Origin: a virus
Reading direction: 5' to 3' (one strand)
IMG/VR virus record: IMGVR_UViG_3300030098_005409
Length of the DNA: 64,000 nucleotides
Every line of letters starts with the position of its first letter. Position 1 is the first letter of the stretch. Positions 24,658-40,279 of this stretch are shown in pieces. A model generated the notes under the pieces. It did not search any database. It was not told where the DNA came from and worked only from the letters and a program-made list of their open reading frames with translations. The position numbers were made by a program, and so were the translations under genes.

Positions 24658-25602
24658 TTATTCTCTGTAAAATCCATCTTTTATGTTATCGGGTATATCG
24701 CCAAGCACAGTTCTCTCTCTGCCGATCTTAATATCAACTGCATTCTCACGCTTAACAATCTTTGGCCTTTCTTGGTTTTCGCCCTCACCGATAAGATAGC
24801 CAAGAGTTTCAATATTAATATTGGTTTCGTAATTCCTCTGCTCCATCCCTAGATTGGCTTGGTTAGAGTTATTAGCAAAATTACCATCAATAAATATTTC
24901 GTAGTAATGCCCCTCGGCTTCAATTCGCTTTGGAGTTCTAGAGTTGCCCGGAATTGTGATGAACGGACGAATAAGCTCATTCATTTGCTGCTGATACTCA
25001 GTTCTGATGGATATTTCATACATTACTTTAACCCAAGTAGGGATAGGGATTGTTATTGTTTCATAAACTGTCTTCGCTGTGGACATGTTTCTTTTATTCG
25101 TGTTAAGCATTTTGCTTGAAACATTTTTATCCGGACCATATTTTCTATTTGCTTGAGCATTCTGAAACTCTGCTGTTTTCTTTTGGTTAATTTGTCTAGC
25201 AATTGTTATGGTGCCACCCTTGGGGTCGTTAATAGGATATAAGTTAGCGAACACAGTACCACGGAAATTCTCTTCTTTTGTCACGCTCGATCGATTAACA
25301 GTGATTAAAGGAAGAATTAAGGTTTCTTCTTTATCTCGCAAGTCTTTGTTATGTTTTATTTGGAAGGCTCGCTCTGATGTAACCCATAGAACTGGAACTT
25401 TTTTAAATCCGTCGTTAGTATTCGTAAAAAGATTAAGCTCTTCGTCAATAAAGCGAAGCATTGCCCTATCGATCGTCTCTAAAGAAGATGGCATAAACTC
25501 AATTTCTTGAAGTTTTTTTGCCACTTCCTTATCACCCACGTAATCAAATCGCTGAGATCTCTTGTCTTTTATTTTCTTTTCGGATCTTTTGCTACGGGAC
25601 AT
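24658..25602 (-). CDS. Tail completion / terminator protein (gp15-like)
   Basis: LETIDRAM, KVPVLW..ERAF, LPLITVNR, QMNELI; position between neck and sheath genes. Confidence 0.65.
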   Translation of the reverse strand: MSRSKRSEKKIKDKRSQRFDYVGDKEVAKKLQEIEFMPSSLETIDRAMLRFIDEELNLFTNTNDGFKKVPVLWVTSERAFQIKHNKDLRDKEETLILPLITVNRSSVTKEENFRGTVFANLYPINDPKGGTITIARQINQKKTAEFQNAQANRKYGPDKNVSSKMLNTNKRNMSTAKTVYETITIPIPTWVKVMYEISIRTEYQQQMNELIRPFITIPGNSRTPKRIEAEGHYYEIFIDGNFANNSNQANLGMEQRNYETNINIETLGYLIGEGENQERPKIVKRENAVDIKIGRERTVLGDIPDNIKDGFYRE

Positions 25603-25606
25603 TTAA

Positions 25607-26875
25607 TTATCCTACGTAAATGCCAGCTGGGACATTTTCAAGAACTTTCTTGGTCGAATCTTGTAGAGTTGAATCAACCGTGGCCAGCTTATCATATGTT
25701 GTGTCTTCAAGGATCGTCTTCAACTCCTCTCTTAACTGGTCCATTTCGGTCCTAGCTTGCGACAATAATTCTGAAGCGTTAAGAGTTACCGATTCTCCTG
25801 GAATAGGTACAGTAGAAAATTTTCCTCTCACCTGACCAAGAATCTCTTTTGTTAGCGCTAAGGCAAATCTACGAATCCATTGCTTACCAATGGCATTAAT
25901 ATTTTCATATGGGATATTCTCAAACGGGAGAGTGTTTAAGTTGTTGATACCGTCTACTCCTTCTCTCCCACGACCAGTTTCTTCCCAAGCCTCGTACTCC
26001 TTATCAATTGTAAATTGAACCCAAAAATTTTCAGGAGATGTGGGGTCAGGTGTTGGAAAAATTCGAAGATTGTTATCGTGAATTTCATACGAATAATGTG
26101 ATATCCGGGTGTGCAACGCATCCTCATAAGCCATAGCCTGAAGTTTGTTCTGCCAAGTTGGCACAATCTCAAAAGTAGAATCGTCAGCATACTGACCGTA
26201 AGTTCTTAAGTTACCTACAACTGAAAATCCGCCGTAGTATCCATAAAAACGCCACATGGCTCTTGGGGTCTTAAAAAAGACTTTCCTGATAATAACTCTC
26301 TTATCCTGAACTTTGCCGTAATAAGGGACAGTTGTATCAGTTGCGGCCGATGAAGAAATTAAAGTCTGCAAATCGTAATCTTGCTGATCTGTTACAGTGC
26401 TAACAGACGCTGAGTAAATTGGCGTAAGCCCTCCGAACCCGGCCTCAGTTGCCAGCTTCTCTGAAACTCTTCGTACATAACCATAATCAAACCTGGGATA
26501 TTTTAAAGCAATGTTAGAACCCGATAACGCACTGCCCGATACAATTTGTCCATCTTGGTCAAAAGAGCCGGTCGCGCCGCCCAGAAGACTGGACAGAGAG
26601 TTCTTTGATTGATGTAGGTTTACTAAATAAGAATATTCTAAAACTGCCTCTTCGTAGGCAGAGTAAACAGAGCCCTCTGATAGTTCAATATCTAAGACAT
26701 CGCCGCCCAGCTTTTTGTAGGTATAAGCTACCTGATCTGCCGCGCCAGATAAAAATGGATTTGAATTAGCATATATGGCGAAAGGTAATGTAGCAGCGAC
26801 ATTTAGCGCCGCCCCTGTGACTGGCAATACGTTTGCGTTAGAAGTAGACGCTGGGTTTAAATTTGGAATTGACAT
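25607..26875 (-). CDS. Neck / head-tail adaptor protein (gp13-like)
   Basis: KLGGDVLDIEL, WIRRFALALTKEILGQVRGKF...IPG...LNASELL. Confidence 0.78.
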   Translation of the reverse strand: MSIPNLNPASTSNANVLPVTGAALNVAATLPFAIYANSNPFLSGAADQVAYTYKKLGGDVLDIELSEGSVYSAYEEAVLEYSYLVNLHQSKNSLSSLLGGATGSFDQDGQIVSGSALSGSNIALKYPRFDYGYVRRVSEKLATEAGFGGLTPIYSASVSTVTDQQDYDLQTLISSSAATDTTVPYYGKVQDKRVIIRKVFFKTPRAMWRFYGYYGGFSVVGNLRTYGQYADDSTFEIVPTWQNKLQAMAYEDALHTRISHYSYEIHDNNLRIFPTPDPTSPENFWVQFTIDKEYEAWEETGRGREGVDGINNLNTLPFENIPYENINAIGKQWIRRFALALTKEILGQVRGKFSTVPIPGESVTLNASELLSQARTEMDQLREELKTILEDTTYDKLATVDSTLQDSTKKVLENVPAGIYVG

Positions 26876-31481: not shown

Positions 31482-33158
31482 TTATGTTGTTGAAGTAATT
31501 CCCCAGCCGAAGCCGCCCATTGATGACGAGAATGCTGTTATTGTTAGTGCGCCGTAATCTGTTTGAATCTTAGCCTGGGTGGCGCCATCAATCTTTTGCG
31601 AACCAGAGGCTGCTACCACCACATTGTTGGTTGACCCCGACCCGGCGATGTCCTTAACAGTATAGGTTAGTCCCACATCGGCAGCCGAGGTAACCCCAGG
31701 AAGCGATCCGGTAATCGCTGAGCCGGTGGAATTAACAATAAATGTTCTAAAATTTTGAATATTGAAGTTTGCTGTTTTTTCGTCGGAAACACCGAAAGTA
31801 ACGTTGCCCTTGGCAGTTAGATTACCGGATCCTGACACATCGCCATCTTTCGACAATGACACGACGGTATTGGAGCCGGCTTGATCGTCAAAGACATTAA
31901 TCGGACAACCAAAGGCGCTCACGCCATCAGATGTACTGGCTACGAACTCGACACCGGCTGAAGCCGATAGAGTGACACTGCCGGCATCATGACCTATGAC
32001 AAAAAAGTCGCCGCCGTCGATCAAGGTTCCTATAGTTCGCGAAGTTCCGGAGCCAACAAAAATATCTTCTCCGATTGCAGCAGAAGCAGATACTCTCATG
32101 CCGACAGATGCCGTTAAAGATCCAGAAACATAGACCACATCGCTACCTTCGGCCCCTAGAATAAGTTCATCTTGTCCATTCTCGTCAAGGATGATAAAAG
32201 ATTTACCGCCAGCTTCAATCGATATTGAATCAGAACCTCTACCGGCAGCACCAAATCTGATTCTTGTGTCAGGGTCTCCGTTGGAGGCTACATACCCCAC
32301 TCCCGTGCCCGGACCAACCTTAACTTGACCCTCAACGACCGCATCGCTTGTAAGATTAAGAGTGGTTGAATATAAATTAGAAGCAGAAAGATTGGTGGAA
32401 GCGGAAACCTCAGTTCCCCCTTGAAGTGCAAGTTTACCGCCGCTATTAATATCTAGATTGGTACCATTGCGAGTGATTTTGTGAGCGTCTCCGGAGCCAA
32501 AGAAGAAGGAATTACCTCCCTGAATATAGTATTCAGAAGCTGATATGGAGGTGGACGCTGAGATCTCGCCCAGTTGGGTTATCTTAGCCGCAACTGTGCT
32601 GCCCTCCTGAGTAGTATATATAAATACTGGGCTCCCGAAGGAACCAACACCATCAGACCCACCAACAAACTCAACGCCATTTGACGCTGATAGAGTAATT
32701 GCGCCGTCGTCATGACCCATGACAAAGAAGTCGTCACTGCCGTCAATTAAAGTTCCTATGGTACGAGTAGTCCCGGAACCGACAAAAATGTCTTGGCCAT
32801 TCGGAGTTGAGGCCGATAAAAGTGTGGTACCTGATACAAAAAGCTTTGTTCGATCTGAACTAACCGAAAAATTAGCAGAACCTGAGATTTCCCCAGATAT
32901 TGGAGAATCTCTTCTGAATTGTAGGGAAAACTCTGGGCCGTCGGCCACATTAACAGCAGAAGCTGTAAGCCCTGTTAAATTAGAGCCGTCGCCATAAAAT
33001 GCAGAAGCAGAGATATTTACGGATGCCGATAGAGATCCTGCCCCATTGGTTGACAATAATGTTGAGCCGCTAAAAGATCCGGCGCTATTAAATTGTATTG
33101 ATCCGGTGGGGCCCCCTGGTGTTCCACCGCCTCCTCCTCCGTATACCCATGCTGACAT
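31482..33158 (-). CDS. Fibre-like virion protein with an internal duplicated module
   Basis: Two copies of DIFVGSGT.RTIGTLIDG.DFFV.GHD.G..TLSAS; SAS/SGS-rich; C-terminal module shared with the other fibre genes. Confidence 0.65.
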   Translation of the reverse strand: MSAWVYGGGGGGTPGGPTGSIQFNSAGSFSGSTLLSTNGAGSLSASVNISASAFYGDGSNLTGLTASAVNVADGPEFSLQFRRDSPISGEISGSANFSVSSDRTKLFVSGTTLLSASTPNGQDIFVGSGTTRTIGTLIDGSDDFFVMGHDDGAITLSASNGVEFVGGSDGVGSFGSPVFIYTTQEGSTVAAKITQLGEISASTSISASEYYIQGGNSFFFGSGDAHKITRNGTNLDINSGGKLALQGGTEVSASTNLSASNLYSTTLNLTSDAVVEGQVKVGPGTGVGYVASNGDPDTRIRFGAAGRGSDSISIEAGGKSFIILDENGQDELILGAEGSDVVYVSGSLTASVGMRVSASAAIGEDIFVGSGTSRTIGTLIDGGDFFVIGHDAGSVTLSASAGVEFVASTSDGVSAFGCPINVFDDQAGSNTVVSLSKDGDVSGSGNLTAKGNVTFGVSDEKTANFNIQNFRTFIVNSTGSAITGSLPGVTSAADVGLTYTVKDIAGSGSTNNVVVAASGSQKIDGATQAKIQTDYGALTITAFSSSMGGFGWGITSTT

Positions 33159-33180
33159 ATTAAATTTTCTCCTGCTTCCT

Positions 33181-33188
33181 TAAATAGT
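33181..33188 (-). promoter_or_regulatory. ACTATTTA motif
   Basis: About 23 nt upstream of 33158. Confidence 0.55.
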
Positions 33189-33199
33189 TGCCCAAAACT

Positions 33200-33230
33200 A
33201 AAAAGGGAGCCCCCCTTTCGGAGGACTCCC
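33200..33230 (-). terminator. Intrinsic terminator
   Basis: GGGAGTCCTCC-GAAA-GGGGGGCTCCC-TTTT. Confidence 0.75.
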
Positions 33231-33264
33231 AAATTATTAGCAGGATTAACCAGCTAGTTCTAGA

Positions 33265-35430
33265 CTAGACGATTCTCCAGTTGTTTGCTACAACGTATAC
33301 CAAAGACACAGCAGCGAATGGGGACTCAAGGTCAATGGTAGTTTCACCATCGACTGTGTGAGAACCCTGGCAGCTGATTCTAAGGATGCGGCTGTTGGTA
33401 ATGTTACCAGCCTTGACGTGCACAACATCACCCACGGATGGGGATGCTGGAAGGTCAACGCCTACGTTACCCGCTGAAATGTCAGCAAAGTAGTTGTAAC
33501 CTTCTGCAAGTGTATCACCATCAGCCTTAAGAGCGACGGAGTTACCCTGAACAGCTAGAACACCGGAAGTAGCGCTGAGACCAGCACCAGCCATGGCAGT
33601 TACGAGGTCAGCAATGCTTTCCTTCTTGGCGTCACCAGTGGCACCACCATCAAGGAACATGATGTAGTCAGATCCAACTGCTACAGCTTCTTCGCCCAAC
33701 AATCCTGGACCATCAAGGAACAGGTTATCAACACCAATCTTCTTGAGTGTTCCACCATCGGAGATCAAAAGCTCGTCGGCGGCCGCAAGACCGTCTGCAG
33801 CTAGCTCTGTCTGGCCGCTAATGACGTTGTCGTTAAGCATTCCGCTTTCGACCGCATCGTTAGCAATTGTCAGAGCACCACCAGCGGCGATTGTAGCATC
33901 ACCGGAGACGTTGCCGAAGATTGAATCCTCAAAATTAGAGAAAGTAACCTTCTTGACAGTTCCTGGACCATCATCAAGCATCAGCAAGTCAGCCTGAGCA
34001 ACAGTGGCTCCACCGAGAGCAGCCTGACCGGAGATGATGTCCTCGGCAAGCATTCCGTGCTCAACGGCACCAGCGGCGATCGTAAGAGCACCACCGGCAG
34101 CGATTGTAGCGTCACCGGAAACAGCACTGAAGTAAAGGTCACGAATATCTCCGAGAGACTCCTTCTTCATACGAGTGTCATCACTTGCGTCCTGGAACAA
34201 CACTAAGTCTGCTGCGACTGCAACAGCTGCTGGTGCAGCCGTATCACCGACAAAGAAACCCATCTCGGCATTGCCAGCGCTGTACTCAACAACTTGGAAC
34301 ACTGGGTTGGCACTTGCATCTTCAATGCTGATCATACCGTCACCAATTGCGACGGAACCAGAAGCACTGGAGCTAACCATCAAAGAAAGGTAACCATCTT
34401 CGCGCGCATCATCATAAACCAATTCAGCCTGATCTTCTAGAAGACCGGACGAACCAGCTGTAACAAGACGACCCTGTGTAAGGGACGAGAGTGTAGCCTT
34501 GCGACCACTGATGTCGCGGAGACCCGAAACATCCTTGTTTGCGTCAAGAACAACAGCCTTAGAAGCCGCAGCAGTACCGTTAGTGATACCGTCAAGCTTC
34601 TCCATGTCAGCTTCGTTAAGATCGGCAGAACCGATAACGAACGAAGTTCCAGCAGTGATTGAGCTAGCAGCCACAATTGTGCTAGAAGCATCAATTGCAC
34701 CGTTAATGTCAACGGTTGTAGCGTTGATTTCAATCTCTGTGTCAGCTACAAGGTCAAGAACACCGTCAGCGGACTGGTGAATGTAAGTTCCGCTGTCGCC
34801 AAACTGCAGCTGGCGGCTGGAGTTCAGAAGAAGACCAGTGTCAGCAACGTGAGTAAGGCTAACGTCCTTATCTGCACCAAAGTTCAAAAGCGCGGCATCA
34901 GAAAGCAGATCAAGATCGTCACCGATCACTGCGCTCTTGGCAACAGACAAGCCACCATCGGTCTGTAAAGAACCGTCTGTGGTTGAAGTAGCTTCGGTAG
35001 CATCATCAACGATGACGCGTCCGCTAGTTGTAAGCTGCACGGCACCAACGTTACGGATACCAGAAGCATCCTTATTGCTATCAAGAACAAGAGCCTTAGA
35101 AGCTGCTGCAGTACCAGCGGTAATACCGTCGATCTGCTCCATGTCGGCTTCGTTCAGGTCGGCAGAGCCAATGATGAACGAAGTTCCGGCAGTAATAGCT
35201 CCGGTACCAGTGACATTACGGTAACCTGTAACATCCTTGTTGCTGTCTACAACAACTACTTTAGAAGCAGCTACTGTACCAGCCGAGACGCCGTCAAGCA
35301 TCTCAAGCTCGGCTTCTGTCAACGAAGCGTTACCAATAACAACTTCGAATCCGGAAGCAAGCTCTACATTACCCTCCTGGAGAAGGGCACCTGAAAGGAT
35401 CGCAGATCCTCTTTGGAATTTATAAGCCAT
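33265..35430 (-). CDS. Repeat-containing fibre / decoration protein
   Basis: Three copies of IG.A.L.EA..E.(L/I)DG...GT.AASK..V.D.NKD; two copies of VSGDATIAAGGALTIA...SGQ; shared C-terminal module. Own terminator and GGAGG RBS. Confidence 0.7.
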   Translation of the reverse strand: MAYKFQRGSAILSGALLQEGNVELASGFEVVIGNASLTEAELEMLDGVSAGTVAASKVVVVDSNKDVTGYRNVTGTGAITAGTSFIIGSADLNEADMEQIDGITAGTAAASKALVLDSNKDASGIRNVGAVQLTTSGRVIVDDATEATSTTDGSLQTDGGLSVAKSAVIGDDLDLLSDAALLNFGADKDVSLTHVADTGLLLNSSRQLQFGDSGTYIHQSADGVLDLVADTEIEINATTVDINGAIDASSTIVAASSITAGTSFVIGSADLNEADMEKLDGITNGTAAASKAVVLDANKDVSGLRDISGRKATLSSLTQGRLVTAGSSGLLEDQAELVYDDAREDGYLSLMVSSSASGSVAIGDGMISIEDASANPVFQVVEYSAGNAEMGFFVGDTAAPAAVAVAADLVLFQDASDDTRMKKESLGDIRDLYFSAVSGDATIAAGGALTIAAGAVEHGMLAEDIISGQAALGGATVAQADLLMLDDGPGTVKKVTFSNFEDSIFGNVSGDATIAAGGALTIANDAVESGMLNDNVISGQTELAADGLAAADELLISDGGTLKKIGVDNLFLDGPGLLGEEAVAVGSDYIMFLDGGATGDAKKESIADLVTAMAGAGLSATSGVLAVQGNSVALKADGDTLAEGYNYFADISAGNVGVDLPASPSVGDVVHVKAGNITNSRILRISCQGSHTVDGETTIDLESPFAAVSLVYVVANNWRIV

Positions 35431-35580
35431 TTTTTAATTTCCTCCTATTAAATGACCGAGACAATAATCATAAATTTAGGGTATCACTACGGAGGAGAGA
35501 GAATCTAAAATATACCCACATCAGTCTCTTGAAATATATACCCGTTGGACGAACGAGAATCAGAAATATTTTAAATTATT

Positions 35581-37509
35581 TTAGTAGATATACCAATCGG
35601 ATCCATCGGTGTATAAAAAGACTGATCCGTAAGGTGATTCAAGGTGTATCGCTGGAGCGCCGTCAATCGTTTGTGATCCTGCAGGGTTAAGAATTACGGA
35701 GGTTGCAGAAGACGCCTGACCAGACTCATCTTTAACAATTAAAGTTTGCCCCGCAGAAAAATCTGTGGCATTAAATAAAATGTTTGTTGGAACTGCTGAC
35801 ACACCAATAATATAATTTCCAGCTGACGCAGTATAGCTTGTTGCTACTGACACTCTGTTGTGTACTAATCCACCATCAACAGTCAGCCTATTATTACTAA
35901 CACTGTACGACACCTTTGTTGTGCCACTAATTTCATTTGAAATTGGATTGTCAACCCTAAACTGAAGGGCTCCTACTGGACCATCTCCTGTAGTGATAGC
36001 CGAGGCTGTAACGTTTGTAAGGTGCCTGCCGTCACCATAATAAAAATCACCATAGTAAAGTGACGATGAAACATGCGCAGAGGCTGTTACATTACTAAAC
36101 TGTCCAGCGCTAGCGGACATCTTGGTGGTACCATCTTCAGCTACGTCGCCCAAGCTGGCGACGACCTGACTAACATTGCTTGGGTCTCTAATCTCAATAG
36201 CTCCAGCAATCTTTAGAGGCGAACCACCGACAACTGTGCCCTTAACCGTAAGATCGCCTGCTACCAAAACATCCGCCGAGGCTGACACACTACCGATCAC
36301 GGTCAACTCATGAGAGGGATCTGCCGTTCCAACGCCTACCTTGCCGGATCCAGTTACAACCAATATATCTGCTGCAGCAGAACTGGAAACCTGTAATAAG
36401 TTTTGGTTTCCGGATCCTGATATGTAAATTCTTGCCGGTATTGGCTCCCCTGCTGCGCCGTCGCGGAATGCCATATTACCATCAGAATTCATTTGCCAGC
36501 GAACTGTTGCGCTGTCAAAATCATTATTTTGTGTTTGAAATTTCAGCATACCATTAGAGGATTGTATTTGGTACTGAGTCGTTTGGTCAGTCTCAAAAAA
36601 CTGGATCCTTGGACGTAACCCTGTAAAACGAATTGCTGGGCTGTTGTCGACAGAACTGGTTCCTATTTCTAAAGTTACATCTGGGGTAGATGTGTTTATG
36701 CCTAGACGCCCAGAGCCAGTTAAGAAGACTAGATTACTATCCCCCGTAAATGCACCAGATCCAGACTGCAATTGCACTGCGCCGATAATACCGTCAGCGG
36801 ATTCGCCAGTTGCTGAAATAGTGAGCGTGCTGTTGGGCCCGCCATCAACAAACTCCACACCTGTGCCGGCGGCGAGCCTTCTTTCATTTGGTAACTTAAT
36901 TTCGGAATTAAGTGTAATATACGATGCTTCCAGGGGCGGGTACGGCACATCACGAGGTGCTGGGGAAGATACATCTGTTTCTTCCTGTTGGCTTAGAGTT
37001 GGACGATCTATTGCCGGTGTTACTCTAAACGCGCCAGCGCGGGCTCTCACACACTCGGCGCTAATTTGAAACTTGTGCTCTATCTGTCCAAAATAATAGC
37101 GAGTATCATTGTAGGTTTTAACAATCTCATAGAATATATCACCATACTGAATAAAGTCGCCAACGCGAACAAATAGATTCTGATCCTCTACAAGTCTGCG
37201 GCGGTGGAAGTTAACTGTTAGTTTAGTTTGATATTCATAACCATACTTTGTATTGGTTTGATTATTCTCAACTTCAACATATGCAAACACCCGCACCGGC
37301 GGCAATGATACTTTCTCTTTTGCCTCGCCGTAAATATCATTGAAGTTTGATTCTTCAATACTTATAGGATAGTAAGCTATTGTTTGACCAAGAACTCTTT
37401 CGGCAAGTTCATCGTTGACTTGCTTTACGAGATTACGTTCTTTTTCCCCAAAGAACATTGGTGCCGGTGGCGCCCCAGGTCTTGTCCATTTATTTTTTGG
37501 ATCGGACAT
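35581..37509 (-). CDS. Head-closure (gp14-like) domain fused to fibre modules
   Basis: First ~163 aa are about 80% identical (manual count) to 37523-38038, followed by GINTSTP/GVGTADP fibre repeats and a C-terminal module. Confidence 0.8.
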   Translation of the reverse strand: MSDPKNKWTRPGAPPAPMFFGEKERNLVKQVNDELAERVLGQTIAYYPISIEESNFNDIYGEAKEKVSLPPVRVFAYVEVENNQTNTKYGYEYQTKLTVNFHRRRLVEDQNLFVRVGDFIQYGDIFYEIVKTYNDTRYYFGQIEHKFQISAECVRARAGAFRVTPAIDRPTLSQQEETDVSSPAPRDVPYPPLEASYITLNSEIKLPNERRLAAGTGVEFVDGGPNSTLTISATGESADGIIGAVQLQSGSGAFTGDSNLVFLTGSGRLGINTSTPDVTLEIGTSSVDNSPAIRFTGLRPRIQFFETDQTTQYQIQSSNGMLKFQTQNNDFDSATVRWQMNSDGNMAFRDGAAGEPIPARIYISGSGNQNLLQVSSSAAADILVVTGSGKVGVGTADPSHELTVIGSVSASADVLVAGDLTVKGTVVGGSPLKIAGAIEIRDPSNVSQVVASLGDVAEDGTTKMSASAGQFSNVTASAHVSSSLYYGDFYYGDGRHLTNVTASAITTGDGPVGALQFRVDNPISNEISGTTKVSYSVSNNRLTVDGGLVHNRVSVATSYTASAGNYIIGVSAVPTNILFNATDFSAGQTLIVKDESGQASSATSVILNPAGSQTIDGAPAIHLESPYGSVFLYTDGSDWYIY

Positions 37510-37522
37510 TCACTCGTTACTC

Positions 37523-38038
37523 CTAAGAAGGTCTTGTAATAGCTTCCTTAACTCTAAATAGACCTCTACGAGCGCGAACACACTCTGCACTTACTTGAAA
37601 TTTGTGCTCTACCTGTCCAAAGTAATATCTTGTATCATTATAGGTTTTTACTATCTCGTAAAATAAATCGCCGTATTGAATAAAATCCCCAGCGCGAACA
37701 AAAAGGTTTTGGTCTTCTACAAGGCGGCGACGGTTAAAATTAATTGTAAGCTTGGATTGATATTCATATCCATACTTTTCGTTTGTTTGTTCGTTATCAA
37801 CAATAACATACGCAAACACACGCACTGGCGGAAGTGTAACTTTATCTATTGCCTCACCGTATGTTGAGTTAAAGTTAGTATCTTCCATACTAACAGAATA
37901 ATAAGCGACTGTCTGCCCAACAACACGTTCGGCTAGCTCATCATTGACTTGTTTTACAAGATCACGTTCATTTTGCCCAAAGAACATTGGGGGTGGTGGC
38001 GCATCTGGCTGCGTCCATTTGTTCTTCGGATCAGACAC
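37523..38038 (-). CDS. Head-closure / neck protein (T4 gp14-like)
   Basis: E..LVKQVNDELAERVVGQ..YY, YGEA..K, GDFIQY..FYEIV, FGQ pattern. Confidence 0.75.
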   Translation of the reverse strand: MSDPKNKWTQPDAPPPPMFFGQNERDLVKQVNDELAERVVGQTVAYYSVSMEDTNFNSTYGEAIDKVTLPPVRVFAYVIVDNEQTNEKYGYEYQSKLTINFNRRRLVEDQNLFVRAGDFIQYGDLFYEIVKTYNDTRYYFGQVEHKFQVSAECVRARRGLFRVKEAITRPS

Positions 38039-38044
38039 GGGGCA

Positions 38045-38467
38045 CTACCCCACGTTAGCGTTAAGGGAGCCAGACCAGTTAGAGCCGGAAGGGGAGACAG
38101 CGAGATTATCAATATTATTAGTTTCAATGCCTGTTAAGCCGGCCACAACACCAAAACTAGAGACCGATCCTGTGTAATAAAGCTCTGTAACCTTCAGCTC
38201 TAGGTGGAGAGTTTGGCCGTCTGGAACGACAAAAGCATTGGTAAATTGCTGAACTCCATTCTGGGAGAACCCGCAGATCAGCTCTCCACCTCCACCGTCT
38301 GTGTTTGTCAGCTTTATCCATCTCGTTACTGATGGGAAATGAATGCTGGGTGTTATGTTGGCGGCGCCAGAAGCAGCATTATCAATAGGACCCTGGACCC
38401 ATGGTATTCCTGATACCTGATAGGATCCTACATTGCCTAGGCCGGGCTTATAATTATAAGTTGACAT
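38045..38467 (-). CDS. Hypothetical, probably virion protein
   Basis: 140 aa, GLGNVGSYQVSG; GGAG RBS; ACTATTTA upstream. Confidence 0.65.
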   Translation of the reverse strand: MSTYNYKPGLGNVGSYQVSGIPWVQGPIDNAASGAANITPSIHFPSVTRWIKLTNTDGGGGELICGFSQNGVQQFTNAFVVPDGQTLHLELKVTELYYTGSVSSFGVVAGLTGIETNNIDNLAVSPSGSNWSGSLNANVG

Positions 38468-38506: not shown

Positions 38507-38728
38507 TTACCTAAACAATTTCTCTTGTTCTTTTCTCACACGCTTTTGTTGTTCGCGAATTGCTTTCTGTTTTTTCATTCGCTTGGCAACAGAAGGCTTG
38601 ACATAATAATCAGTTTTTTCTCTATACTCCCGAACAACTCCCTGTTTTTTACACTTACGGTTGAACCTTCTAATTAACTTTTCGTCGGATTCATTTCGTC
38701 TTTTGGTTACTCTAACATTAACGGGCAT
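38507..38728 (-). CDS. rpsU: Ribosomal protein bS21
   Basis: VRV..RNES.EKLIRRF.RK..KQGV..EYR....YVKPS..KR.KKQKA.R; 73 aa, very basic. Confidence 0.88.
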   Translation of the reverse strand: MPVNVRVTKRRNESDEKLIRRFNRKCKKQGVVREYREKTDYYVKPSVAKRMKKQKAIREQQKRVRKEQEKLFR

Positions 38729-38732
38729 CTTA

Positions 38733-39188
38733 TTACTCTCTTTCTTTCATTTCGTTCATGTGGGCATTCCAATTGCGTCCCACGGCGCCGAAAAGATTGC
38801 TAATATCAACCCCGGGGTCGGACGGAGATTGACCAGACATGGGGGATGCCTGTGAGGTTGAAGTTGGGGTTGCCTGGGCAGGCGCAGGGGTTGTGCCCTC
38901 AAACAAGTCAACACCGTTATACGCCCCGCCACCTATGGCAGCCATTAGCTTCTTTTTATGTTGTTTAAGTTTGCCCGACTGCTCTTTACTAAAAGCATTT
39001 GCTTTCATTCTTTCCATGGTGGGATCAACTTTCGGTTCTGGGGCCTTGGCTTCTACTAAGGTTTGTGAGGACATACCCTTAACAACCTCGGCAATGATAC
39101 CTGAGATCAACCCGTCTTCAAGAAGTGATTCTTTGATGCACTCTTGAACAATGGGCTTGATTAGTTTCTTAAACTCTGACTTTTTCAT
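38733..39188 (-). CDS. Hypothetical protein (head region)
   Basis: 151 aa, MKKSEFKKLIKPIVQECIKESLLE N-terminus. Confidence 0.7.
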   Translation of the reverse strand: MKKSEFKKLIKPIVQECIKESLLEDGLISGIIAEVVKGMSSQTLVEAKAPEPKVDPTMERMKANAFSKEQSGKLKQHKKKLMAAIGGGAYNGVDLFEGTTPAPAQATPTSTSQASPMSGQSPSDPGVDISNLFGAVGRNWNAHMNEMKERE

Positions 39189-40279
39189 TTTATACCTGCT
39201 AATACTTTCATTCTTTTAATTTGTTTGTGTTCTGTAAGGCGATTTCTCTTTGCCAATATGTCCTTGGCGACGGCTAGTATCTTCTGCTCAGCATTTCTGA
39301 GGACCTCCATGTCGTAGTTGACCTCCGCCCATGCGGCGCGCTGATCATCGAGCAGTTCCTGCCGAGCCTCATAAGTCTCGTGGGGGCTCAACCCGTAGAT
39401 TCGGCCATAACTGTCATAGAGATGATTGAGGACTTCGATGGGCGCACTTATGGTACCGAACGTAAGGTCGTCCTTCTCAACGGAAGAGAAAAATTCCTCT
39501 AGAGTCTCGTCGTCCAAGGATAAGAAAAACTTTTCAAAGTCGACTGGCTCTTCTTCAGGGTCTGCTACGGTGAGAATCGAGGGTATGTCCTCCTCCTCAT
39601 CTTCGGGGTCCGGAGCAGCCACTGGCTCTGCTGCAATGGTGTCTGTTTGGTCTTCCTCATCTTCAGGATCCGGAGCAGCTACCGGTTTTGTTACAATAGT
39701 TGCTGTCTGGTCTTCTTGATCCGGATCCGGGCCCCGGACTGGTTCTGCTACAATGGTATCTGTTTGATCTTCTTCATCTGGAGCAGCCACTGGCTCTGTT
39801 ACAATGGTATCTGTTTGATCTTCATCTGGTTCGGGATCAGCTACGGTGAGGATCGAGGGAATGTTATCGGCTATACTTTTAACAACCGGACTAATATCCA
39901 AGGCACTACGGTTGAACAATCCTAATAATTGTTTAAAAACTTTAGGACTCTTTTGTGCTATAGTATCTAAAAATACTTTGAGCTTAGGAGCATTTTGGTG
40001 CGTGACGACCACATCTTCCTCACCAGTAAAAAGGCGCTCATTTTCTTTAACAACAAAACCTTCGTCTTCAAGAACGCCTGTAAGTTCATCTACAATAGCT
40101 TCGCGCTGCGACGGCGTAAGTTCTGCTCCGGATCTTTTAGACGCGTCGTCAAGTCCCTTAATGATGGTTGCCAACTCAGAAGCTGGATATTCTTTGGTTG
40201 GTTCTTTCTTGCCGAAACCAAAGATTTCATTAACTTCTTCTTTAATAATTTTTTGCAATTCTTCTTTTGAGATTTGCAT
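39185..40279 (-). CDS. Acidic repeat protein, candidate prohead core / internal head protein
   Basis: N-terminus MQISKEELQKIIKEEVNE; C-terminus RMKVLAGIK like the scaffold; internal repeats. Confidence 0.65.
   Translation of the reverse strand: MQISKEELQKIIKEEVNEIFGFGKKEPTKEYPASELATIIKGLDDASKRSGAELTPSQREAIVDELTGVLEDEGFVVKENERLFTGEEDVVVTHQNAPKLKVFLDTIAQKSPKVFKQLLGLFNRSALDISPVVKSIADNIPSILTVADPEPDEDQTDTIVTEPVAAPDEEDQTDTIVAEPVRGPDPDQEDQTATIVTKPVAAPDPEDEEDQTDTIAAEPVAAPDPEDEEEDIPSILTVADPEEEPVDFEKFFLSLDDETLEEFFSSVEKDDLTFGTISAPIEVLNHLYDSYGRIYGLSPHETYEARQELLDDQRAAWAEVNYDMEVLRNAEQKILAVAKDILAKRNRLTEHKQIKRMKVLAGIK
39548..39862 (-). repeat. In-frame tandem repeat (about 4x (E)DQTDTIV.EPVAAPD) bracketed by two IPSILTVADPE copies
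   Basis: Visible in both protein and DNA. Confidence 0.85.

What the first reader, a model, noticed from the sequence alone, without database searches (positions are those of the whole stretch)
35581..38038. Duplicated head-closure gene, one copy fused to a ~480-aa fibre
Seen: a stand-alone 171-aa gp14-like gene is followed by a second copy (31 differences in 163 aa by manual count, mostly conservative) that continues into fibre repeats and a terminal module. Known: gp14-type proteins form the hexameric neck ring, and T4 adds collar/whiskers through separate fibritin. Inference: a mixed ring with covalently built-in neck fibres, or two alternative virion types; a fibre-display strategy I do not recognise from described phages.
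Basis: partly seen in the sequence, partly recalled or inferred. Interest (0 to 1): 0.75.

Follow-up and report, generated by a model that had tools for sequence, protein, structure and literature searches.

The report
Phage neck ring with built-in fibre
A marine T4-like phage has two copies of its head-sealing neck-ring gene, one plain and one fused to a long fibre, so neck fibres appear to be built into the ring, unlike in T4, which adds them as separate proteins; this design is common in ocean phages but I found no description of it.

Summary

The domain is a T4 gp14-type stopper (head-closure) fold. T4 gp14 is the top Foldseek hit, and VIA-align gives Z 10.0. In relatives the single-copy gene sits in the gp13 - gp14 - gp15 slot. 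In this phage that slot is empty.

B continues into a conserved fibre base, a variable shaft and a tip domain like those of phage tailspikes. Two downstream free fibres carry the same tip.

The short-plus-long pair recurs in 15 other independent metagenomic contigs. Both copies are under strong purifying selection (omega about 0.01-0.08).

Related phages have short-only or fibre-fused-only forms. One lineage has a tandem domain-domain-fibre gene in the canonical gp14 slot.

Duplication arose at least twice. Each time the fibre-bearing second copy changed Gln10 to Arg, in the N-terminal loop that contacts the adaptor ring in T4 gp14.

Best reading: a mixed neck ring with covalently attached neck fibres. 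The co-assembly, fibre number and fibre function are inferred, not shown. First readers of this scan noted the same architecture on other genomes; those notes are unchecked.

The parts
37523..38038 (-). ORF A: stand-alone gp14-type stopper (head-closure) protein, 171 aa, GTG start, Gln at residue 10
37510..37522 (-). 13-nt A-B intergenic spacer; with A's stop codon it forms TAGGAG, a Shine-Dalgarno-like motif for B
37015..37509 (-). ORF B residues 1-165: second gp14-type stopper domain, 80% identical to A, Arg at residue 10
36664..37014 (-). ORF B residues 166-282: Ser/Pro/Glu-rich linker followed by a conserved fibre base (PYPPL...KLPNER, LPNER at residue ~206); the LPNER motif is found only in fused forms
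35869..36663 (-). ORF B residues 283-547: variable fibre shaft (Gly/Ser/Thr/Ala/Val-rich). Residues 255-430 match PHROG 9942 'tail fiber protein'. Residues ~474-546 are 47% identical to the N-terminal part of the 558-aa fibre (YGDG..LT module). Not predicted with confidence as a monomer
35584..35868 (-). ORF B residues 548-642: compact beta tip domain (pLDDT ~90) of the type found in trimeric phage tailspikes and baseplate adaptors; stop codon at 35581-35583
38045..38467 (-). p140: unassigned 140-aa ORF found between S21 and the upstream gp14-like slot in most related loci (context)
33265..35430 (-). 721-aa free fibre protein ending in the same tip module as B (context)
31482..33158 (-). 558-aa free fibre protein ending in the same tip module and sharing the YGDG..LT module with B (context)
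25607..26875 (-). gp13-type head-tail adaptor (PHROG 211 Ad2; direct BLAST hit from T4 gp13)
25603..25606 (-). Empty canonical gp14 slot: only 4 nt separate the gp13-like and gp15-like genes
24658..25602 (-). p314: probable gp15-type tail terminator / sheath stabiliser (Atlas lead only)

Best explanation
A and B are paralogues of the T4 gp14-type stopper (head-closure) protein. This protein forms the ring that binds under the gp13-type adaptor, seals the DNA-filled head and provides the docking surface for the tail. In this phage lineage the gene has left its usual place between the gp13-like and gp15-like genes and now lies next to the fibre genes. One copy (B) has become a single polypeptide made of stopper domain, linker, conserved fibre base, exchangeable shaft and tailspike-type tip. 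Because the phage has no other gp14-type gene, A and/or B must build the neck ring, so B's fibre is covalently anchored at the head-tail junction. I think it most likely that A and B co-assemble side by side in one ring, so that only some positions (probably half) carry a fibre chain. This would reduce crowding and would bring the number of fibre chains closer to what a probably trimeric fibre needs. The Q10R change lies in the N-terminal loop, which in T4 gp14 grips the adaptor ring; it may mark B as the non-equivalent partner. The fibre probably binds a cell-surface component reversibly (first contact with the host) or interacts with the phage's other fibres, which carry the same tip. Shown: the two genes, their fold, the synteny logic, their conservation and selection, the recurrence of the design, and the tip fold. 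Inferred: the ring stoichiometry, co-assembly in one ring, fibre oligomeric state and fibre function.
For: Identity of the domain: the AF2 model (pLDDT 75.8) has T4 gp14 as top Foldseek hit (E 6e-6, TM 0.65). VIA-align Z is 9.6-10.0 to T4 gp14, 10.4 to a Chi neck chain and 10.3 to the phage 812 stopper. The top 17 entries (Z 8.3-10.4) are all phage neck complexes. hhalign against a gp14 alignment gives 57% probability, E 1e-4. The order of elements (N-terminal loop, long helix, beta core with long hairpin) matches T4 gp14 as described in PMC12929587. Neck location: in Mel-JY01, immuto and 26 IMG/VR loci the single-copy gene lies between the gp13-like and p314 genes. The two slots are mutually exclusive in 16 of 16 loci. 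Tandem D1-D2-fibre genes lie in the canonical slot. Both copies functional: omega 0.01-0.08, and the two clades have mirrored topologies. Co-assembly: the tandem fusion fixes a 1:1 ratio of the two domain types in one polypeptide. Duplication arose at least twice (AU p 4.7e-5). Arg10 is present in 14/14 paired long copies and 11/13 tandem D2 domains, but in none of the 62 rows of the single-copy and paired-short classes, which include 22 long-only forms. [quoted passage not shown] Fibre: PHROG 9942 tail fiber; tip Z 11.2-11.6 to CBA120 TSP4-N, a Klebsiella phage KP1 baseplate chain and the Solidus tailspike C-terminus.
Against: There are no virion data, so neither protein is shown to be in the particle. 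Long-only phages exist (for example L049, covered from terminase to sheath with only a 533-aa fused gene). A fully fibre-bearing ring is therefore viable, and the short copy is not strictly needed. A hexamer with three fibre chains 120 degrees apart does not obviously make a trimeric fibre. The ring could instead be a 12-mer, as in phiKZ. The sequence-level link to gp14 is only moderate, and Pfam and PHROGs give no hit. The shaft was not predicted with confidence. A separate origin of the L061/L066 pair is not statistically secure (AU p 0.08), and intragenic gene conversion could mimic independent duplication in the tandem lineage.
Confidence: 0.6

Rival explanations
1. Stacked rings: A forms the ring that contacts the gp13-type adaptor, and B forms a second ring below it that carries six fibre chains. 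Tandem D1-D2 proteins would then build both layers from six chains.
For: The stopper fold is related to the tail-tube fold, and tube rings stack; tube, Dit and hub chains appear lower in the hit list. Arg10 in the adaptor-contacting arm occurs only in the second copy, as expected if its arm grips something other than gp13. Six chains would give two trimers. The ~45-aa D1-D2 linker could span two layers.
Against: A and B are 80% identical, with only 11 discriminating positions, mostly conservative. That is few for a new top-to-bottom interface. Long-only and short-only phages manage with one ring. No length change in neighbouring neck genes was seen: gp13-like is 421-423 aa and p314 is 314 aa in both kinds of phage.
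Confidence: 0.12
2. No co-assembly: A and B each form homomeric rings, giving two kinds of virion (with and without neck fibres), or one copy is used only under some conditions.
For: Both homomeric states exist in nature, as short-only and long-only phages. Nine of 16 short copies start with GTG while all 16 long copies start with ATG, so expression of the two may differ.
Against: The tandem fusion forces both domain types into one complex. The two genes are 12-18 nt apart, so probably co-transcribed. At 80% identity with conserved core motifs, spontaneous co-assembly is the default expectation. The pair-specific Q10R change has no obvious reason under this model.
Confidence: 0.12
3. B is not a neck protein: its tube-like domain anchors a fibre on the baseplate or tail, and A alone is the stopper.
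For: Weaker structural matches to Dit, hub and baseplate chains (Z 5-6). The gene lies next to free fibre genes.
Against: Long-only phages have no other gp14-type gene and an empty canonical slot. Tandem fibre fusions sit in the canonical slot itself. Stopper matches (Z 8.3-10.4) stand clearly above the Dit and hub matches.
Confidence: 0.04
4. Artefact: an assembly duplication, or a decaying pseudogene copy.
For: None beyond the tandem arrangement itself.
Against: 15 other independent contigs carry the same pair. Nucleotide identity is 75% with saturated dS, and omega is about 0.06. Both frames are intact, and the short and long clades co-diverge.
Confidence: 0.01

Closest known systems
T4 gp14 (head closure Hc2, neck stopper; PDB 9mkb, 9lu4-9lu7)
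   Same: Same fold and the same order of elements: N-terminal loop, long helix, beta core with a long hairpin. Same gene position in single-copy relatives. It is the only gene of its kind in the structural module..
   Different: The shared domain here is 165-171 aa against 256 aa in T4. It lacks T4's C-terminal helix-and-hook that embraces gp15. Here the gene is relocated, duplicated, and one copy carries a 477-aa fibre.
T4 fibritin (Wac) collar and whiskers on gp13 domain III
   Same: Fibres projecting from the head-tail junction of a T4-type myophage.
   Different: Fibritin is a separate trimeric protein bound non-covalently to the dodecameric adaptor gp13 (PMC12929629). Here the fibre is part of the stopper polypeptide. 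There is no sequence similarity to Wac (hhalign probability 0.3%).
Anabaena myophage A-1(L) neck fibres (gp82-gp81-gp80 on the gp5 pentadecamer)
   Same: Long neck fibres whose distal module resembles a carbohydrate-binding domain. The symmetry problem between ring and trimeric fibres is solved at the neck.
   Different: The A-1(L) fibres self-assemble separately and hook onto an extra 15-fold ring (PMC10966104). Here there is no extra ring gene, the anchor is covalent, and the symmetry problem may be addressed by a paralogue pair.
phiKZ stopper gp99 (dodecamer with two conformers, gp99A and gp99B)
   Same: A stopper ring with two non-equivalent subunit populations; through them the ring contacts the terminator and the whisker (PMC13250141). 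The fold also matches (9xps_B, Z 7.4).
   Different: In phiKZ one gene gives two conformations, and the whiskers are separate proteins. Here the two states would be encoded by two genes (or two domains), and the fibre is fused.
T4 gp27 / VgrG-type hub (tandem tube-like domains making a pseudo-hexameric trimer); my own knowledge, not tested here
   Same: Tandem duplication of a tube-like domain in one chain, which adapts a six-fold ring to a three-fold fibre or spike. This is the logic suggested by the D1-D2-fibre proteins.
   Different: The hub sits on the tail axis, so its spike is axial. A neck ring has DNA and the tail on its axis, so the fibres must leave sideways.
SPP1 tail tube gp17.1 / gp17.1* (short and long forms made by frameshift); my own knowledge, not tested here
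   Same: A ring-forming structural protein made in a plain form and a C-terminally extended form that are mixed in one assembly.
   Different: SPP1 uses a programmed frameshift in one gene and adds a small domain. Here two genes are used and a whole fibre is added.

Membership tests
T4 gp14-type stopper / head-closure (Hc2) proteins | Stopper fold: N-terminal loop, long helix, beta barrel with a long beta2-beta3 hairpin | tested here: met
   AF2 model. Foldseek top hit is T4 gp14, E 6e-6. VIA-align Z 9.6-10.0 to gp14; the top 17 entries (Z 8.3-10.4) are all phage neck complexes. T4 anatomy taken from PMC12929587.
T4 gp14-type stopper / head-closure (Hc2) proteins | Detectable sequence homology to gp14 | tested here: inconclusive
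   No Pfam or PHROG hit. No sequence hit in the PDB. hhalign against a gp14 alignment gives 57% probability, E 1e-4 over 87 columns, aligning YGEA/FGED and GD...YEI/GD...FEI.
T4 gp14-type stopper / head-closure (Hc2) proteins | Gene lies between the gp13-type adaptor and the gp15-type terminator | tested here: not met
   In this window the slot is empty (4-nt gap) and the genes lie about 10.6 kb upstream. The feature is met by single-copy relatives (Mel-JY01, immuto, 26 IMG/VR loci) and by the tandem forms, so I read this as relocation, not non-membership.
T4 gp14-type stopper / head-closure (Hc2) proteins | Sole gene of its kind in the structural module (essential ring component) | tested here: met
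   The upstream and canonical slots are mutually exclusive in 16 of 16 loci where both are visible. There are only two copies in the 64-kb window. A whole genome was not available.
T4 gp14-type stopper / head-closure (Hc2) proteins | Hexameric ring on the dodecameric adaptor; loops that gate the DNA channel; docking of the tail terminator | not testable with these tools
   Needs cryo-EM or biochemistry. No multimer modelling was available.
Fibritin (Wac)-type neck whiskers | Separate trimeric coiled-coil protein with a foldon, bound to gp13 domain III | tested here: not met
   The fibre is covalently fused to the stopper domain. hhalign of the fibre alignment against T4 Wac gives 0.3% probability. 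The model predicts almost no helix.
Phage receptor-binding-protein tip / adaptor beta-sandwich (CBA120 TSP4-N type) | Compact beta domain superposable on the tailspike or baseplate-adaptor domain | tested here: met
   VIA-align wide search: 7rej_A Z 11.6 (rmsd 2.1, 91 aligned), 9f4a_Le Z 11.6, 24qj_A Z 11.4 (27% identity), 9ny6_C Z 9.7. Two non-phage chains follow at Z 9.1 and 7.8, then scores fall to 5.5 and below. This shows the fold only; binding function was not tested.

The most novel reading that the evidence does not exclude
The neck ring of these phages is a genetically encoded pseudo-symmetric heteromer. Fibre-less and fibre-bearing stopper subunits alternate, and are fused in tandem in one lineage. 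The six-fold ring would then present a defined, reduced number of fibre chains: three per hexamer, which is one trimeric fibre, possibly a single asymmetric neck fibre. This solution evolved at least twice, each time with the same Gln10-to-Arg switch in the adaptor-gripping arm. It would be the neck counterpart of the gp27/VgrG pseudo-hexamer, and a new way of displaying receptor-binding fibres in one of the ocean's abundant myophage groups.
Probability: 0.35. Interest if true: 0.78.

Novelty: new variant of a known kind. Interest (0 to 1): 0.62.

Why it matters
Neck fibres are known from T4, PhiRSL1 and A-1(L), among others. In the described cases I could find, they are separate proteins docked non-covalently on the adaptor-level ring.

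Here the fibre is part of the stopper subunit itself. The family shows a graded series: plain, all-fused, plain plus fused, and tandem-fused. This makes the old problem of fitting three-fold fibres onto six- or twelve-fold rings directly testable.

The group is large: more than 2,200 short and at least 345 long clusters in public metagenomes. The fibre shafts are swapped like tail-fibre modules. These proteins are therefore probably a major, unannotated part of host recognition in marine phages.

The finding also gives a name to a large family of 'hypothetical proteins'. It exposes an unannotated gene in the Flavobacterium phage immuto records.

Tried and rejected
- Pfam and PHROGs on A, B and the neighbours gave nothing for the shared domain. 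The only match was a sub-threshold TssN hit (E 0.003, 17 bits against a cut-off of 30), which I dismiss as chance.
- A profile search of PDB sequences found nothing.
- The search for related loci with alignment A1 failed because it had no conserved stretch to search with. The single protein worked.
- No whole genome is held for the window, so copies outside the 64 kb cannot be excluded.
- The monomer fold of the fibre (B 166-642) was poor except for the tip: mean pLDDT 52. I draw no conclusion about the shaft fold.
- I first read L061/L066 as a third independent duplication. The AU test does not reject one origin for all paired long copies (p 0.08), so I claim only two or more origins.
- The independent-pairs sign test for Arg10 has too few contrasts to reach significance (3 supported pairs).
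- My first slot-exclusivity script mis-scored filled canonical slots. One search is the corrected version.
- I looked by eye for a prohead-protease (L/I-x-E) site in B's linker and saw none. In any case the neck joins after head maturation.
- Similarity of the fibre to T4 fibritin: none.
Full report
**Observation**

Two adjacent minus-strand ORFs lie at the stated coordinates. A is 37523-38038 (171 aa). B is 35581-37509 (642 aa). They are 80% identical over all 171 residues of A, without gaps (E 9e-105). B continues for 477 more residues. The spacer is 13 nt and contains a GGAG motif before B's ATG.

**Setting**

The window is a T4-superfamily myophage structural module, read on the minus strand. 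The order is:
- large terminase, then portal
- five ORFs without a family match
- S77 prohead protease
- a scaffold-like acidic protein
- an unassigned 151-aa ORF
- ribosomal protein S21
- p140
- A, then B
- two fibre proteins (721 and 558 aa)
- three ORFs without a family match
- gp23-type capsid protein
- gp13-type adaptor (PHROG 211, Ad2)
- p314
- tail sheath

The nearest cultured relatives by capsid protein are Microcystis phage Mel-JY01, Flavobacterium phage immuto and Rhodothermus phage RM378. No whole genome is held for the window.

**What the shared domain is**

Pfam, PHROGs and a PDB sequence search find nothing. An AlphaFold2 model built on a 31-sequence alignment (mean pLDDT 75.8) has an N-terminal loop, a long helix (22-40) and a beta core with a long hairpin (72-102).

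Foldseek's best PDB match is chain 9mkb_0 (E 6e-6, TM 0.65). One search shows that this chain is T4 gp14. VIA-align gives Z 9.6-10.0 to T4 gp14, 10.4 to a Chi neck chain and 10.3 to the phage 812 stopper. The top 17 entries (Z 8.3-10.4) are all phage neck complexes. Tube, Dit and hub proteins follow at Z 5-6.

A profile-profile comparison with a gp14 alignment gives 57% probability and E 1e-4, aligning the family's invariant motifs. The element order matches the published gp14 anatomy (PMC12929587).

**Synteny**

In Mel-JY01 the homologue (174 aa) lies between a gp13-like gene (E 5e-56 to the window's) and a p314-like gene (E 5e-16), upstream of the sheath. The immuto genome is similar. p314 groups with T4-gp15_tss clusters in the ESM Atlas (score 0.94; a lead only).

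Across 80 IMG/VR loci the family occupies one of two slots:
- Canonical slot: gp13-like - X - p314.
- Upstream slot: S21 - p140 - X - fibres.

In the 16 loci where both slots are visible, 15 have only the upstream slot filled, with a gp13-like-to-p314 gap of 15 nt or less. One has only the canonical slot filled. None has both or neither. The upstream genes are therefore the phage's only gp14-type genes and must supply the neck ring. This is an inference from gp14 being the stopper of the T4 neck (PMC12929629).

**Four configurations**

- Short only.
- Long (fibre-fused) only. For example, L049 is covered from terminase to sheath and has only a 533-aa fused gene.
- Short plus long: the window and 15 other contigs.
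- Tandem D1 - linker - D2 - fibre in one chain: 22 listed database proteins of 367-1,918 aa, and ORFs of 830-1,260 aa in IMG/VR loci.

The tandem genes lie in the canonical slot: gp13-like - [D1-D2-fibre] - p314 - sheath. Their D1-D2 linker is conserved and contains cysteines, so they are real proteins. The database holds 2,218 short and at least 345 long clusters.

**Evolution**

Twelve of the 14 paired short copies form one clade. Eleven of the 14 paired long copies form another. The two clades have mirrored internal topology. This means an old duplication, inherited together, without concerted evolution.

Between A and B, dN is 0.135 and dS is saturated. Among orthologues omega is 0.01-0.08 for both copies.

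Tandem D1 and D2 are sister clades (support 98.8). Forcing the tandem D2 domains and the paired long copies into one clade is rejected (AU p 4.7e-5). Duplication therefore arose at least twice. A separate origin for L061/L066 is not secure (AU p 0.08).

**A pair-specific residue**

Residue 10 was tabulated across all classes:
- Short-only forms: Gln in 10/10.
- Long-only forms: Gln in 22/22.
- Canonical single-copy forms: Gln in 13/16; the other three have Ala.
- Paired short copies: Gln in 14/14.
- Paired long copies: Arg in 14/14.
- Tandem D2 domains: Arg in 11/13.
- Tandem D1 domains: Gln in 11/13.

The change therefore tracks being the second partner of a pair, not carrying a fibre. By alignment to T4 gp14 (model residues 10-159 against gp14 residues 24-177), residue 10 lies in the N-terminal loop. 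In T4 that loop wraps the gp13 adaptor loops.

**The fibre**

Long forms are modular. They have:
- a conserved proximal base; LPNER is at residue ~206 in 30 of 40 long forms and never occurs in a free fibre ORF
- a variable middle
- a conserved distal part

B, the 721-aa fibre and the 558-aa fibre end in the same 60-80-aa module. Only this tip is predicted with confidence (pLDDT ~90). [quoted passage not shown] There is no similarity to T4 fibritin.

**Mechanism**

In T4, gp13 is a dodecamer and gp14 a hexamer. Fibritin binds gp13 domain III. [quoted passage not shown] A C-terminal extension of a gp14-type core should therefore emerge outside the neck-tail junction (inference).

I propose that A and B co-assemble in one ring, so that only part of the positions carry a fibre. 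The tandem fusions, the recurrence of the duplication and the Arg10 switch favour this over separate homomeric rings. A two-layer stack remains possible.

The stoichiometry is open: six subunits as in T4, or twelve as in phiKZ (gp99A/B). The number of fibres and their oligomeric state are also open.

All 16 long copies start with ATG and have a GGAG- or GGGG-type motif upstream. Nine of the 16 short copies start with GTG. This may tune the A:B ratio.

**Comparison with the literature**

T4, PhiRSL1 and A-1(L) attach separate fibre proteins non-covalently at the adaptor level. phiKZ has separate whiskers. My searches found no description of a stopper-fibre fusion or of a stopper paralogue pair. 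These searches cover only the held library.

First readers of this scan noted the same architecture on other genomes. Those notes are unchecked.

**Verdict**

This is a real, conserved feature. It is a new variant of two known things, the stopper ring and neck fibres. Its location has good genomic support. The mixed-ring assembly is plausible but unproven.

Noticed in passing
window 31482-37509 (C-termini of the three fibre ORFs: 35584-35868, 33268-33573, 31485-31790): B and the two downstream free fibres (721 and 558 aa) end in the same 60-80-aa tip module (invariant VK..G..GS..(I/V)DG..W.I). One phage therefore displays one tip on three different shafts, one of them neck-anchored.
   Followed up: partly
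L001 12001-12549 (+), i.e. MW353176.1 about 133209-133757: The gp14-like gene of Flavobacterium phage immuto (a 182-aa ORF by my scan) is not annotated in the GenBank record. Two small opposite-strand ORFs (immuto35A_211 and _212) are annotated over it instead.
   Followed up: partly
window 38045-38467 (-): p140, a 140-aa ORF with no Pfam or PHROG match, lies between S21 and the upstream gp14-like slot in most related loci. It keeps that place before a fibre gene in L060, where gp14-like is in the canonical slot. It may be a fibre or neck accessory protein.
   Followed up: no
window 38507-38728 (-): Ribosomal protein S21 (PHROG 21469, E 1.4e-9) lies inside the head-morphogenesis block. It is conserved at this position across the IMG/VR relatives, and an S21 gene also lies in the head module of Mel-JY01.
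   Followed up: no
P0122-P0141, P0241, P0242; L099-L108: Most of the tandem D1-D2 proteins examined have a conserved linker of about 45 aa with two or three cysteines (..APACDP..EIRVLTGD..GGSG.QPC..). This could be a disulphide or metal site that fixes the relative position of the two stopper domains. P0138 and P0241 have a divergent linker.
   Followed up: no
window 38036-38038 and relatives: Nine of 16 short copies start with GTG, behind a weak GTGGGG-type motif in the window's sub-clade. All 16 long copies start with ATG, with a GGAG- or GGGG-type motif upstream. This may control the short:long ratio at the level of translation.
   Followed up: partly
L026, L041, L050, L071 and others: Shaft segments homologous to B's fibre occur as free-standing fibre proteins in other phages of the clade (for example the 1,019-aa ORF in L071, which has gp14-like in the canonical slot). 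Fibre modules therefore move between neck-anchored and free proteins.
   Followed up: partly
window 39185-40279 (-): The 364-aa scaffold-like protein contains tandem acidic repeats (..EDQTDTIV.EPVAAPDPE..).
   Followed up: no
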